Source: Escherichia virus TH57. From it: a DNA stretch of 64,000 nucleotides. Made by a program: the position numbers and the translations under genes. This document shows positions 7,248-36,009 of the stretch, in pieces. The stretch lies in the sequence record MT446422.1. One strand, 5' to 3'. The stretch's first letter is position 1. Each line of letters opens with the position of its first letter. Below the pieces are notes generated by a model. That model worked only from the letters and a program-made list of their open reading frames with translations, made no database searches and was not told the DNA's origin.

Positions 7248-7464
7248 TATTACCGATTTTTTAGATAAAATCGAGGAAGACTTTACTGCGCTCCCATATT
7301 TCATTAAACTTTATCTGCGAGACATAAAAGGTCTTCCAATTGATATCGACCCTTTAAACGTCCGGAATCTGGAATTTACTTCACCGGATAATAACGTTGA
7401 TTACCGTTATCATGTGGATAATGCTAATCTATATTTTACAATTGAGTTAACTCCCAAGGATTAA
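7231..7464 (+). CDS. hypothetical protein (77 aa)
   Basis: ORF overlapping the end of gene 55. Confidence 0.35.
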
Positions 7465-33026: not shown

Positions 33027-33055
33027 AATTCAAAAATTAAAAGAGATGTGCGATG
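32976..33055 (+). repeat. tandem direct duplication, 2 x 40 bp, at the dexA start
   Basis: GTTGCTGGTGAAATTCA(G/A)AAATTAAAAGAGATGTGCGATG repeated head to tail with one mismatch; copy 2 contains the dexA ATG. Confidence 0.8.
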
Positions 33056-33736
33056 ATTGATGCTATTATTGACTTTGAAACTCTAGGAAACGGCTCGAAG
33101 GGAGCCGTTATTGACCTGGCTCTGATTACATTCGAATCTGACCCTGCTATTGTGGAATCATTCGAAACTCTGGTTAATCGCGGCAAACGTATTAAGTTCA
33201 GCCTCGAATACCAAAAAGGTAAGCGGTTGTTCGACACAACAACCATGGGTTGGTGGAAAAAACAATCACCAGAAGCTCGTGTTAACCTGACTCCTTCTGC
33301 GCATGATGTTGATACTCTGACCGGTATCCAACAGGCGATTGACTATCTGAATGGCAATGGAATTAACAAATACGAAAGCCTTATGTGGTGCCGTGGAATG
33401 TCTTTTGACTTCCCGTTGTTTGTCGACCTTATCCGCGACCTACAGCGCAATGAGGGGATTCCTGAGCGTGAATTGAATACCTACGGTCTGGAGCCGGTTG
33501 TATTCTGGAATCAGCGAGATATCAGGACAGCCATCGAAGCCTTATCACTCGTCCGTAAGATGTGTGAAACCCCATTACCGAAAGGGACTTTAGATGGATT
33601 TGTGGCGCACGATTCGGTACATGACTGCGCGAAAGATATTTTGATGTTGAAGTACGCCCAACGCTATGCTCTTGGTTTGGATGAAGTTCCTTCCGAAGAA
33701 GATGCAGACCCGTTATCTTTACCGAAAAAACGATAA
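33053..33736 (+). CDS. dexA: exonuclease A DexA (DnaQ-like)
   Basis: 227 aa; exonuclease motif IDFETLG near N-terminus. Confidence 0.85.
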   Translation: MIDAIIDFETLGNGSKGAVIDLALITFESDPAIVESFETLVNRGKRIKFSLEYQKGKRLFDTTTMGWWKKQSPEARVNLTPSAHDVDTLTGIQQAIDYLNGNGINKYESLMWCRGMSFDFPLFVDLIRDLQRNEGIPERELNTYGLEPVVFWNQRDIRTAIEALSLVRKMCETPLPKGTLDGFVAHDSVHDCAKDILMLKYAQRYALGLDEVPSEEDADPLSLPKKR

Positions 33737-33743
33737 AAAGTAG

Positions 33744-33772
33744 TGTACAAGGCCAATAGAAAGAGACATAAT
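33744..33772 (+). promoter_or_regulatory. early-type promoter cassette (GTGTACA, 17 nt, CATAAT)
   Basis: Leader CATCAACTACTGATGAGGA then ATG 33804. Confidence 0.5.
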
Positions 33773-33803: not shown

Positions 33804-34061
33804 ATGATTACTTCTTTTGAAATTGGCCAACAATATGAAATGTCTGCTCTTCAAGCTGCTGAAGCAGGTCTGACTAAAGCGTTTGAATGTGCATTTGCAA
33901 ATATTCGTGGTAAAATCTTTACTGTCAATAAAATTGCGGTATATGATAAAGAAACAGACATGAACAAAGGCATCTACCTGAACGTGTCAAATGCAAAAGG
34001 CCGTCGTGAAATTATGGTTGTACAACCTAATCAACTGGCGATGTTCAATAAGGTTGCATAA
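33804..34061 (+). CDS. hypothetical protein (85 aa)
   Basis: ORF after early promoter cassette. Confidence 0.45.
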   Translation: MITSFEIGQQYEMSALQAAEAGLTKAFECAFANIRGKIFTVNKIAVYDKETDMNKGIYLNVSNAKGRREIMVVQPNQLAMFNKVA

Positions 34062-34816
34062 TGAAACCAGAATTTATTGACTTTGATGTTGTAAGCACTT
34101 ATGTGTGTCCAATTAAACCATTAAAACTTGAGAAACAAAATATGACTATTGAAATTAACAAAACTTATCAACTGATTGAACCTATTATTCAAAACGCAGC
34201 TATGATTTCTGGGTATAATACTTTGACTGATGCTTTAGGTGAAGGTGAATTTGTTGTTGAAACTTTTGTAAAAAGTAACTGGTTTGATAAAGCATATATT
34301 TTGCATGCCCGTCGTCTGGATACTAATGAAGTGGAAAAAATTATGGTTTATGAAGCTGAGATTGAACTTTTCAAAGAAGTTGAAGAAACTCCTATCAAAG
34401 TTGGTAAAACATATCAGCTTATTGAAGATGGTAGTCAGTTTGATAATGCTATCGCACTGCATGCAGGCTGGCGTGTGCTGAAAGGTATTTTTGGCTTTGC
34501 TCCATTTACCGTTGAAACAGTTAAGTACCACAATCACTTAAATATCTTTGAATTTACTGCAATTAATGAATCAGGTGACAATCTTGAAGCTATCCTTTAT
34601 CCGCGTGAATCTGTACTGTTGGAAGAAGTTAACGAACTGGGTGACCCTATTGACTTGTTATGTAAACCAGTTCAAATCAAACGCCCATTTAACAGTTCCA
34701 TTTGTGGTTGGGTAACAGACCAGTGGATTGAAGATGGGGTTGAACTCCTGAACGTCGTCCATGCTGGTGAATTTACTGTTGTCCCACGTTCCATGGTTGT
34801 TCAAATTTTTAATTAA
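34061..34816 (+). CDS. hypothetical protein (251 aa) with internally repeated domain
   Basis: Two copies of a KTYQLIE.. domain; C-terminal segment WVTDQWIEDGVELLNVVHAGEFTVVPRS shared with ORF 34894. Confidence 0.5.
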   Translation: MKPEFIDFDVVSTYVCPIKPLKLEKQNMTIEINKTYQLIEPIIQNAAMISGYNTLTDALGEGEFVVETFVKSNWFDKAYILHARRLDTNEVEKIMVYEAEIELFKEVEETPIKVGKTYQLIEDGSQFDNAIALHAGWRVLKGIFGFAPFTVETVKYHNHLNIFEFTAINESGDNLEAILYPRESVLLEEVNELGDPIDLLCKPVQIKRPFNSSICGWVTDQWIEDGVELLNVVHAGEFTVVPRSMVVQIFN

Positions 34817-34821
34817 GTTTA

Positions 34822-34851
34822 GTGTACAAACTCTTGGGGTCGGAGTATAAT
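34822..34851 (+). promoter_or_regulatory. early-type promoter cassette (GTGTACA, 18 nt, TATAAT) with stem-loop
   Basis: TGGGGTC..TATAAT..GACCCCA stem-loop; upstream of ORF 34894. Confidence 0.5.
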
Positions 34852-34893
34852 GACCCCACTGGAGAATAAACTTATTAACCAAGAGAGAAAATT

Positions 34894-35385
34894 ATGAAAG
34901 TTGAAGCTGGTGATATTGTACGTGTTTCTAAAGAATCTCGTTCCAAAGCTGCTGGTCGTTTTGTTGAGGTTGTGGGTCTTCGCACTAATTTAGCAGGTGG
35001 AATTAAAGAAGTTAAAGTGCGCATCATTCCTAAAAATGGTCAGACTGAAACTCAATTGGCTTATGTGCATCCTAAATTCCTGGAATCAACCGAATTTACT
35101 GGGTACATCGCTCCTGTGGCCGAAGAAGTTGAAACTATTGACCAGTCTCATGTTGGGGTTGATTTTAAATGGAAATTGGGCAAAGGTGTCTTTTTTGTTT
35201 CACCTAAACCGTTTGAATATAATTGTCAGTATGGTCCGACTTATGAAACCACTAGCATGTCTGGTTATATCACAGACCAATGGGTTGAAGAAGGTGTCAA
35301 ACTGTATAATATCGTGTTCCTTGGAACCTTTAAGGTTGTTCCTGAGAGCTTTATTGTCGAGTATGCTGATATTCATTTTGCCTAA
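34894..35385 (+). CDS. hypothetical protein (163 aa), possible MotB-like
   Basis: N-terminal KOW/Tudor-like segment (GDIVRVSKESRSKAAGRFVEVVG); C-terminal domain paralogous to ORF 34061; MotB assignment by size, position and recalled domain organisation only. Confidence 0.45.
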   Translation: MKVEAGDIVRVSKESRSKAAGRFVEVVGLRTNLAGGIKEVKVRIIPKNGQTETQLAYVHPKFLESTEFTGYIAPVAEEVETIDQSHVGVDFKWKLGKGVFFVSPKPFEYNCQYGPTYETTSMSGYITDQWVEEGVKLYNIVFLGTFKVVPESFIVEYADIHFA

Positions 35386-35432: not shown

Positions 35433-35657
35433 ATGTTTAATGAAGATTGTGTGACCACTTCCCTGACTGCTGAAGAGTTTTGGGATACTGCTGAAAGTGA
35501 TAAAGTGATTGTGAAGAAAAACATCAATGAATTTCTTTGCACCACTGATATCATTTATGTGTATGCAGACAAAGACGCAGAACTACCTAGCTATGCGTTG
35601 TTCCGTGAAGAATCAGAAGATGGTACAGATTTTTGGAAGGAGATTTATAATGTCTAA
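35433..35657 (+). CDS. hypothetical protein (74 aa)
   Basis: ATG with GAGGAGAA RBS after hairpin. Confidence 0.4.
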   Translation: MFNEDCVTTSLTAEEFWDTAESDKVIVKKNINEFLCTTDIIYVYADKDAELPSYALFREESEDGTDFWKEIYNV

Positions 35658-36009
35658 ATTTGAAACTGATAAGTGGTATTATTTTAAAGATAATGTTGCT
35701 GAAAGCAGATTCCGTTTGTTATGCACAGATAATGATAATATAGCCAATGCTATAATCAATGGCGAGGGATTTAGACCAGTCAGAATTGAAGATGGTGATG
35801 TGTGTAAAATGGAATTATCAACTGGTGAATTTGTGAGCCTATTCATAAAGGAAGATGAATTCCGTTTCTTTGAAGAAGAAAAAGATGACGGCGATGAAGA
35901 AACTGAAGCTCCAGAAATCACTGCATTCCCATTGACTAAAATCACCATTAGTAATAATGAAGAAGCCTGGTCAGTTTTCCAGATGTTGAAAGCACACTTT
36001 AAGGAATAA
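35650..36009 (+). CDS. hypothetical acidic protein (119 aa)
   Basis: ATG 35650 overlapping upstream stop; acidic C-terminal stretch. Confidence 0.4.
   Translation: MSKFETDKWYYFKDNVAESRFRLLCTDNDNIANAIINGEGFRPVRIEDGDVCKMELSTGEFVSLFIKEDEFRFFEEEKDDGDEETEAPEITAFPLTKITISNNEEAWSVFQMLKAHFKE

What the first reader, a model, noticed from the sequence alone, without database searches (positions are those of the whole stretch)
34061..35385. Two adjacent genes share a C-terminal domain; one has a KOW/Tudor-like N-terminus, the other an internal repeat
ORF 34894 (163 aa) and ORF 34061 (251 aa) share the segment (W/Y)(V/I)TDQW(I/V)E(D/E)GV.L.N(V/I)V..G.F.VVP.S. ORF 34061 also carries two copies of a KTYQLIE-type domain. 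Size and position are compatible with the MotB-like gene of T4, but the paralog is unexplained.
Basis: inference. Interest (0 to 1): 0.4.

Follow-up and report, generated by a model that had tools for sequence, protein, structure and literature searches.

The report
MotB and MotB.1 phage gene pair
These are the already described early genes motB and motB.1 of a T4-like phage, which share a small C-terminal domain; the only new detail is that this phage's MotB.1 has two N-terminal modules instead of one.

Summary
ORF 34894-35385 (163 aa) is a full-length MotB orthologue (Pfam PF17613, E 7.5e-52). ORF 34061-34816 (251 aa) is the MotB.1 orthologue of a Gaprivervirus (SP18/VR-like T4-type phage). 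They share a C-terminal five-strand module: BLASTP 19/38 identical, E 3e-12; family profiles E 3.7e-16.

The shared C-terminal domain (CTD), the different N-terminal domains (NTDs) and the KOW-like NTD of MotB were published by Patterson-West et al. 2021, whose Table S4 lists the SP18 orthologue of this ORF. The small-barrel ("LSm-like") NTD of MotB.1 was published by Kim et al. 2025.

The internal repeat is also real. Two ~80-aa modules have the same predicted strand/helix order and are 37% identical. Each is closer to a single-module MotB.1 in another phage (66% and 56%), so this is a fusion of old paralogous modules, not a recent duplication. I did not find this two-module architecture described.

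Function is unknown. The protein is very acidic (net -18) and the shared domain is acidic in both proteins. I therefore infer that the shared domain docks onto a partner rather than binding DNA.

By-product: the 119-aa MotB.1 of the T4 reference genome results from a one-base insertion found only in that record. Other T4 records encode 143 aa.

The parts
33744..33772 (+). Sigma-70-type promoter-like site (TGTACA-17-CATAAT) upstream of the 85-aa ORF. It is the probable early promoter of the 85-aa ORF plus motB.1 unit.
   Evidence: Consensus scan, 9 of 12 matches. Pattern match only; the total number of sites in the region was no higher than in shuffles.
33804..34061 (+). 85-aa ORF of unknown function (phrog_17795). 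Its stop overlaps the motB.1 start (TAATG), which suggests translational coupling.
   Evidence: No detectable relation to the MotB.1 modules.
34061..34816 (+). motB.1 orthologue, 251 aa, pI 4.6, net charge -18.
   Evidence: phrog_2333 E 1.7e-79. 52% identical to T4 MotB.1 over 115 aa, E 7e-35. Annotated motB.1 in SP18. dN/dS 0.14-0.17.
34061..34147 (+). Leader, residues 1-29 (FIDFDVVSTYVCPIKPL motif), predicted disordered.
   Evidence: pLDDT below 50 for residues 1-27. The motif is conserved in relatives and recurs between the NTD and CTD in distant family members.
34148..34387 (+). Module A, residues 30-109: a small barrel with an inserted helix, the first KTYQLIE copy.
   Evidence: Model elements E35-38, H46-59, E63-71, E78-85, E91-97, H98-103, E104-106. 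66% identical to the single NTD of the 180-aa MotB.1 P0022.
34388..34639 (+). Module B, residues 110-193: the second copy of the same fold and the second KTYQLIE.
   Evidence: Model elements E117-120, H131-144, E149-157, E162-169, E174-179, H181-186, E187-190. 56% identical to the NTD of the 165-aa P0095, 28% to the T4 MotB.1 NTD, and 37% to module A.
34640..34813 (+). MotB-type C-terminal domain, residues 194-251: five short strands. This is the most conserved part of the family.
   Evidence: Strands E203-206, E214-224, E227-234, E237-242, E246-248. Most columns from C215 to R243 are invariant in 30 sequences. Pfam motB positions 118-154 match.
34823..34851 (+). Early promoter-like site of motB (TGTACA-17-TATAAT).
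   Evidence: 10 of 12 matches. Conserved in SP18, RZ, T4 and RB9.
34836..34857 (+). Hairpin GGGGTC/GACCCC whose loop contains the -10 box. It can form only in read-through transcripts from motB.1.
   Evidence: The 86-nt stretch 34810-34895, whose predicted fold includes this hairpin, has MFE -20.9 kcal/mol, z -3.1. T4 and RB9 have GGGACC/GGTCC(C/T), so two pairs are changed on both sides.
34894..35385 (+). motB orthologue, 163 aa.
   Evidence: Pfam PF17613 positions 1-161 of 162, 175.9 bits, E 7.5e-52. phrog_1671 E 1.7e-67. 100% identical to the ECML-359 MotB.
34894..35091 (+). MotB N-terminal KOW/Tudor-like barrel, residues 1-66, basic (pI 10.0, net +5).
35092..35145 (+). Acidic disordered linker, residues 67-84.
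   Evidence: pLDDT below 50 for residues 67-84. Relatives vary in length here.
35146..35382 (+). MotB C-terminal domain, residues 85-163. It is homologous to the MotB.1 CTD but has a longer first hairpin.
   Evidence: Strands E98-110, E116-132, E135-142, E145-150, E154-157, pLDDT 84-95 over residues 91-160. hhalign aligns MotB 83-159 with MotB.1 195-251, with two insertions in MotB.

Best explanation
The window is a Gaprivervirus (T4-type phage). The finding covers two adjacent early genes, motB.1 (34061-34816) and motB (34894-35385).

Shown here:
- Both proteins end in the same small five-strand domain.
- MotB puts a basic KOW/Tudor-like barrel in front of it.
- This phage's MotB.1 puts a disordered leader and two tandem copies of the MotB.1-type small barrel in front of it (the 'LSm-like' domain of Kim et al. 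2025).
- The two copies are old paralogues. Module A is the type found singly in most 180-aa MotB.1 proteins, and module B is the type found singly in a rarer 165-aa form. The 251-aa protein therefore arose by joining two existing modules on one C-terminal domain.
- This fits a family-wide pattern in which interchangeable N-terminal barrels are shuffled onto a constant C-terminal domain.

Known from T4 experiments: MotB binds DNA without sequence specificity, copurifies with H-NS/StpA, alters H-NS footprints and doubles burst size. MotB.1 is non-essential and of unknown function.

Inferred here, at about 0.3 probability: the shared C-terminal domain is not the DNA-binding part. It is mildly acidic in both proteins, whereas MotB's N-terminal barrel has pI 10. 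I propose that it is a docking or oligomerisation module that takes different N-terminal barrels to the same partner, such as the H-NS/DNA nucleoprotein or MotB itself. With net charge -18, the two-module MotB.1 would then act as a protein-binding adaptor or competitor rather than a DNA binder.
For: Identity:
- Pfam motB matches the 163-aa ORF full length. Only the C-terminal part of that model matches the 251-aa ORF.
- PHROG families 1671 and 2333 match, with reciprocal cross-hits confined to the C-termini.
- The region is 91-97% identical in DNA to SP18/VR-type phages, which annotate motB.1 and motB there. Synteny with T4 is dexA ... motB.1, motB, cef, goF, 39.2, 39.1, 39.

Shared domain:
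- Searches show the homology. Searches show matching strand order.

Modules:
- define modules A and B.

Shuffling:
- Relatives have one A module (180 aa), one B module (165 aa), a T4-type module (143 aa), or an extra N-terminal domain plus A (about 248 aa), all on the same CTD.
- The CTD profile finds only 32 clusters among 1.84 billion representatives. Several of them join a MotB-type KOW NTD to a MotB.1-type CTD.
- One such distant member sits at the motB position in front of cef.

Real genes: dN/dS 0.09-0.17.

Charge.

Literature: PMC7827196, PMC12152347, PMC6070864.
Against: - The docking-module idea is inference from charge and conservation only. No binding partner was tested.
- Patterson-West et al. 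assign the CTD to a DNA-binding OB-fold by HHpred.
- Model confidence is moderate: mean pLDDT 76 and 79, pTM 0.40 and 0.46.
- The window MotB as a whole is slightly acidic (pI 5.7), unlike T4 MotB (pI 9.2). Even MotB's DNA binding is extrapolated from T4.
Confidence: 0.85

Rival explanations
1. The shared C-terminal domain is the DNA-binding (OB-fold, cold-shock-like) domain. Both MotB and the 251-aa MotB.1 would then be nucleoid-binding proteins that differ only in accessory N-terminal domains.
Confidence: 0.25
2. The internal repeat is a recent in-place tandem duplication within the Gaprivervirus lineage.
For: Identical KTYQLIE heptamers at residues 34-40 and 116-122. The two-module form was seen only in the close SP18/VR-like group: 7 clusters cover the whole query and 32 phage records are at least 80% identical.
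Against: Modules A and B are only 37% identical. A is 66% identical to the single module of P0022, and B is 56% identical to the single module of P0095. P0095 lies in the same motB.1-motB-cef context. The modules diverged long before they were joined.
Confidence: 0.05
3. The 251-aa ORF is a decaying or non-functional gene in a hyperplastic, non-essential region, and its architecture has no functional meaning.
For: T4 motB.1 knock-outs show no phenotype in the laboratory. Frame-broken copies exist in some records, such as the RB69 reference. A 43-aa deletion remnant, P0261, exists.
Against: dN/dS is 0.14-0.17 overall and below 0.25 in every module. The ORF is intact in all close relatives examined. 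The CTD is almost invariant across the family. The family is present in 748 phage records.
Confidence: 0.07

Closest known systems
T4 MotB (Pfam PF17613; Patterson-West et al. 2018, 2021)
   Same: ORF 34894-35385 matches the family model end to end. It has the same KOW-like NTD, linker and CTD layout, the same position before cef, and an early-promoter-like site of its own.
   Different: Roughly half of its residues are identical to Tequatrovirus MotB proteins. Overall pI is 5.7 against 9.2 for T4 MotB. DNA binding and the H-NS association are not tested for this orthologue.
T4 MotB.1 (P39415; MotB.1 group, Categories 2-4 of Patterson-West 2021; 'LSm-like fold' family of Kim et al. 2025)
   Same: ORF 34061-34816 lies immediately upstream of motB, carries the same CTD, and its module B plus CTD aligns with T4 MotB.1 (52% over 115 aa). 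The SP18 orthologue is listed in Table S4 of the 2021 paper.
   Different: It has two N-terminal modules instead of one, plus a leader motif, giving 251 aa against 143 aa. The module nearest the N-terminus is the type used by the 180-aa MotB.1 proteins, not the T4 type.
KOW / Tudor / EF-P domain I small beta-barrels (SH3-like superfold)
   Different: There is no significant sequence match of the window proteins to Pfam KOW. The A and B modules carry a 14-residue helix between strands 1 and 2 that classic KOW and Tudor domains lack.
T4 GoF and Frd.2 (same 'LSm-like' family according to Kim et al. 2025)
   Same: Module A gives a weak cross-hit to phrog_622, the family of the window's goF-like ORF 35638-36006. 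That ORF in turn weakly hits Pfam FRD2.
   Different: The relation is not significant here (hhalign E 0.1, PHROG E 0.004). GoF and Frd.2 lack the MotB-type CTD.

Membership tests
MotB (Pfam PF17613) | Full-length match to the family model above the gathering score | tested here: met
   175.9 bits against a cut-off of 25, residues 1-162 on profile positions 1-161 of 162.
MotB (Pfam PF17613) | Position between motB.1 and cef, upstream of gene 39 | tested here: met
   Pfam T4_Cef matches the next ORF, followed by a Zn-ribbon 39.2 and gp39. The order is the same in T4 and SP18.
MotB (Pfam PF17613) | Two-domain layout: KOW-like N-terminal barrel and C-terminal beta domain | tested here: met
MotB (Pfam PF17613) | Non-specific DNA binding, copurification with H-NS/StpA, toxicity on expression | not testable with these tools
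   Known only for T4 MotB (PMC6070864, PMC7827196).
MotB.1 group (phrog_2333; T4 MotB.1) | Sequence homology to T4 MotB.1 beyond the shared CTD | tested here: met
   BLASTP residues 137-251 against the 143-aa T4 MotB.1, 52% identity, E 7e-35. phrog_2333 E 1.7e-79.
MotB.1 group (phrog_2333; T4 MotB.1) | CTD closer to the MotB.1 type (DPxDLLC...CGWVTDQWIEDGVELLNVVH) than to the MotB type | tested here: met
   72-79% identity to other MotB.1 CTDs against 32-44% to MotB CTDs.
MotB.1 group (phrog_2333; T4 MotB.1) | Gene immediately upstream of motB | tested here: met
MotB.1 group (phrog_2333; T4 MotB.1) | A single N-terminal small-barrel domain | tested here: not met
   Two modules, A (residues 30-109) and B (110-193), are present. 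This is an architectural variant within the family, not grounds for exclusion.
LSm/Sm fold (as proposed for the MotB.1 NTD by Kim et al. 2025) | Five-strand bent antiparallel sheet with closest structural neighbours among Sm/LSm/Hfq proteins | tested here: inconclusive
KOW motif (Pfam PF00467) | Sequence match to the KOW model | tested here: not met
   No KOW hit for the window MotB NTD even at E 10. A distant CTD-bearing relative at the motB position, P0256, does pass: 24.8 bits against a cut-off of 22.3. The resemblance for the window protein is at fold level only.
OB-fold cold-shock DNA-binding domain (proposed for the CTD in PMC7827196) | Five-strand OB barrel with structural neighbours among CSD/S1/eIF5A C-domains | tested here: inconclusive
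   The CTD is predicted as five strands. eIF5A and EF-P chains appear among the matches, but they also contain an SH3-like domain, and the output does not show which part aligned. The charge of the CTD argues against non-specific DNA binding.

The most novel reading that the evidence does not exclude
The MotB-type C-terminal domain is a dedicated docking or hetero-oligomerisation module, restricted to T4-like phages, and not a DNA-binding domain. Phages swap small N-terminal barrels (KOW-like, one or two MotB.1-type modules, others) onto it. This sends different activities to one common target, for example H-NS/StpA-coated DNA or MotB itself. The acidic two-module MotB.1 would then be a modulator or competitor of MotB in nucleoid takeover.
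Probability: 0.25. Interest if true: 0.5.

Novelty: already known. Interest (0 to 1): 0.2.

Why it matters
There is little new biology here. The gene pair, the shared C-terminal domain and the domain classes are published, and RefSeq already labels the orthologues in relatives as MotB-like.

Three points could help people who work on these proteins:
1. The family is a set of interchangeable N-terminal barrels on one nearly invariant C-terminal domain, including a two-module form. This points to the C-terminal domain as the part to study.
2. Charge distribution suggests that MotB's DNA binding sits in the N-terminal barrel, not in the shared domain.
3. The T4 reference annotation of MotB.1 (119 aa, 13.8 kDa) is truncated by a one-base insertion unique to that record. 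Published expression tests that report a 13.8-kDa MotB.1 probably lacked half of the conserved C-terminal domain.

Tried and rejected
- **Solved structures.** Neither protein nor either family profile matches any PDB sequence. My recollection of a MotB crystal structure was not borne out; the published domain assignments are predictions.
- **NCBIfam.** No hits.
- **The upstream 85-aa ORF as a third copy of the module.** BLASTP against the extra N-terminal domain of the 248-aa relatives gave E 2.1, and hhalign against the family gave E 0.14. Rejected.
- **The goF-like ORF 35638-36006 as a relative of module A.** hhalign gave E 0.1, and the only other signal is a weak PHROG cross-hit at E 0.004. 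This is consistent with Kim et al. 2025 but not demonstrated here.
- **Programmed frameshift in motB.1.** This was suggested by the T4 and RB69 reference sequences. It is rejected because the T4 extra G is absent from 13 other T4-strain records and from all relatives examined, and the RB69 breaks lie at different positions.
- **Recent in-place duplication of the module.** Rejected.
- **Leader as a copy of the pre-CTD linker.** The leader (DFDVVSTYVCPIKPL) resembles the linker before the CTD (DPIDLLCKPVQIKRP), but the match is not significant (E 0.16).
- **Long repeat proteins in the CTD profile search.** Four hits (P0259, P0260, P0262, P0264) match only a short piece of the profile several times. 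P0264, the one whose sequence I read, is a tandem-repeat protein. I treated all four as spurious.

Full report
**Context.** The window is a T4-type phage of the genus Gaprivervirus. The 1.75-kb stretch around the finding is 97% identical to Escherichia phage ECML-359 and 91-95% identical to SP18, VR20/25/26 and RZ. On the + strand the gene order is srd, dda.1, dda, a small ORF, dexA (33053-33736), an 85-aa ORF (33804-34061), the 251-aa ORF (34061-34816), the 163-aa ORF (34894-35385), cef (35433), a goF-like ORF, the 39.2 zinc ribbon, 39.1 and gene 39. This is the T4 order dexA ... motB.1, motB, cef, goF, 39.2, 39.1, 39. SP18 annotates the two ORFs as motB.1 and motB. RefSeq labels both RZ orthologues 'MotB-like transcriptional regulator'.

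**The observation.** Both ORFs and the quoted motif are present.
- The pairwise match is 19/38 identities, E 3e-12.
- The Pfam motB model matches the 163-aa ORF end to end (E 7.5e-52). Only its positions 118-154 match residues 211-247 of the 251-aa ORF (E 9.5e-9).
- PHROG families 1671 (MotB) and 2333 (MotB.1) cross-hit only at the C-termini.
- I built alignments of 30 MotB.1-type and 49 MotB-type proteins from two database searches. Profile-profile comparison gives probability 98.7%, E 3.7e-16.
- The homology runs from the conserved Asp at the start of the domain to the C-terminus: MotB.1 195-251 against MotB 83-159. MotB carries two insertions that lengthen the first hairpin. The shared unit is therefore the whole C-terminal domain, not just the 38-residue core.

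**Structure.** The AlphaFold2 models are of moderate confidence (mean pLDDT 76 and 79).
- MotB has an N-terminal barrel (strands 8-11, 23-31, 37-44, 54-58), a disordered acidic linker (67-84) and a C-terminal domain of five strands (98-110, 116-132, 135-142, 145-150, 154-157) with pLDDT 84-95 over residues 91-160.
- The 251-aa protein has a disordered leader (1-27), then two modules, then a five-strand C-terminal domain (203-206, 214-224, 227-234, 237-242, 246-248).
- The two modules have the same element order, strand-helix-strand-strand-strand-helix-strand, at 35-106 and 117-190.
- The last four C-terminal strands correspond one to one with those of MotB, and the first strand also corresponds.
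- The window MotB does not match Pfam KOW by sequence. A distant relative, P0256, does (24.8 bits against a cut-off of 22.3). It carries the same C-terminal domain and sits at the motB position in front of cef.
- No solved structure exists for either family.

**The internal repeat.** KTYQLIE occurs at residues 34-40 and 116-122. The repeat covers the whole modules: 37% identity over 78 aligned positions and local E 5e-6. It is not a recent duplication.
- Module A is 66% identical to the single N-terminal module of the common 180-aa MotB.1 proteins (P0022).
- Module B is 56% identical to the single module of a 165-aa MotB.1 (P0095), and is more distantly related to the T4 MotB.1 module (28% over the module alone). 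Module B plus the CTD aligns with T4 MotB.1 at 52% over 115 aa.
- P0095 lies in the same motB.1-motB-cef context in a metagenomic contig.
- Relatives show one A module, one B module, a T4-type module, or an extra 80-aa N-terminal domain plus A, always on the same C-terminal domain.
- The two-module form was seen only in the SP18/VR-like group: 7 clusters cover the full query and 32 phage records are at least 80% identical.

**Breadth of the family.** tblastn finds the MotB.1 family in 748 phage records, which by organism name are phages of enterobacterial hosts; every record I examined is a T4-type phage. A profile of the C-terminal domain alone was searched against 1.84 billion representative proteins. 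It finds 32 clusters. Most of those I read are small proteins of 43-250 aa. Several join a MotB-type KOW N-terminus to a MotB.1-type C-terminal domain, often with the 'leader' motif (D.D..SMY.TP..P) in between (P0250, P0251, P0252, P0255, P0257, P0258). MotB and MotB.1 are therefore two ends of a continuum produced by shuffling N-terminal barrels onto one constant domain.

**What is already known.**
- Patterson-West et al. 2021 (PMC7827196) reported that MotB has a KOW-like N-terminal domain and a C-terminal domain they assign to the OB fold. They also reported that MotB.1, the gene immediately upstream, shares that C-terminal domain but has a different N-terminal domain, and that homologues fall into four categories.
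- Their Table S4 lists YP_003934637, the SP18 orthologue of the 251-aa ORF.
- Kim et al. 2025 (PMC12152347) described the MotB.1 N-terminal domain as an 'LSm-like' five-strand barrel related to GoF and Frd.2. They found motB.1 non-essential and without effect in their RNA reporter assay.
- T4 MotB binds DNA non-specifically, copurifies with H-NS/StpA, is toxic when expressed and doubles burst size.
- Neither paper's searchable text mentions a tandem N-terminal architecture or a frameshift.

**Mechanism.**
- Shown: both genes are under purifying selection (dN/dS 0.09-0.17, below 0.25 in every module).
- Shown as a pattern match: motB has its own promoter-like site, TGTACA-17-TATAAT, at 34823-34851.
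- Shown: the 85-aa ORF and motB.1 overlap by TAATG.
- Shown: the C-terminal domain is by far the most conserved part, with most columns from C215 to R243 invariant in 30 sequences.
- Inferred: the shared domain is mildly acidic in both proteins (net -3), the 251-aa protein is net -18 with every module acidic, and MotB's positive charge lies in its N-terminal barrel (pI 10). I therefore think the N-terminal barrel is MotB's DNA-binding part. The shared domain would be a docking or oligomerisation module, which makes the two-module MotB.1 a protein-binding adaptor or competitor. I give this about 0.3. The published OB-fold DNA-binding view is the main rival.

**By-products.**
- The T4 reference record (AF158101.6, which is NC_000866.4) has an extra G in motB.1: ATTGGAAG where other records have ATTGAAG. 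This ends the ORF at 119 aa, inside the conserved motif (...GWVTDQWIGRWR*). The next frame continues EDGVELLNVVHAGEYSVVPRSAVVAILN*. Thirteen other T4-strain records and all relatives examined lack the G, and MT984581 annotates a 143-aa product.
- Kim et al. used synthesised genes and report a 13.8-kDa MotB.1 monomer. They probably tested the truncated form.
- The RB69 reference motB.1 has two frame breaks in the same domain. The '29-aa Category 3 peptide' of the 2021 paper is the tail of that domain.

**Verdict.** The feature is a known gene pair. The two-module MotB.1 architecture and the shuffling pattern are modest additions.

Noticed in passing
L003 (T4 NC_000866.4) about 7291-7305, minus strand; compare window 34727-34735: The T4 reference motB.1 has a one-base insertion (ATTGGAAG where other records have ATTGAAG). 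It truncates the annotated protein to 119 aa (13.8 kDa, P39415) in the middle of the conserved C-terminal motif. Thirteen other T4-strain records and all relatives examined lack the base and encode 143 aa. Kim et al. 2025 used synthesised motB.1 and report a 13.8-kDa monomer, so they probably assayed the truncated protein.
   Followed up: yes
L006 (RB69 NC_004928.1) 1500-1654: The RB69 reference motB.1 has two frame breaks inside the C-terminal domain. The separately annotated 29-aa ORF, 'Category 3' of Patterson-West 2021, is simply the tail of that domain. Whether this is a real pseudogene or a sequencing error was not resolved.
   Followed up: partly
window 34823-34857: The early-promoter-like site of motB (TGTACA-17-TATAAT) lies within a stable hairpin (GGGGTC/GACCCC) whose loop holds the -10 box; the 86-nt stretch containing it folds with z -3.1. 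T4 and RB9 keep the hairpin with two pairs changed on both sides (GGGACC/GGTCC(C/T)). It could form only in read-through RNA from motB.1, so it may be a 3' stabiliser or processing signal.
   Followed up: partly
window 34061-34147 (residues 1-29 of the 251-aa ORF); proteins P0250-P0258: The disordered N-terminal 'leader' motif (IDFDVVSTYVCPIKPL) recurs in distant family members between a KOW-type N-terminal domain and the C-terminal domain. In RB69 MotB.1 it sits between the module and the CTD. It behaves like a separate short module or linear motif of unknown role.
   Followed up: partly
protein P0261 (43 aa, from the CTD profile search): This sequence joins the first 15 or so residues of T4-type MotB.2 directly to the last 28 residues of the MotB.1 C-terminal domain. 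It looks like a deletion remnant and illustrates how plastic the dexA-motB interval is.
   Followed up: no
window 33804-34061: An 85-aa ORF (phrog_17795, unknown function) occupies the place of T4 motB.2 and overlaps the motB.1 start by TAATG. It shows no detectable similarity to the MotB.1 modules. SP18 and RZ annotate a 101-aa version.
   Followed up: partly
window 35638-36006: The goF-position ORF (123 aa from this ATG, phrog_622) gives a weak Pfam FRD2 hit (E 0.0012). Its family is weakly cross-hit by module A (E 0.004). This is in line with the proposed GoF/Frd.2/MotB.1 superfamily but is not significant here.
   Followed up: partly
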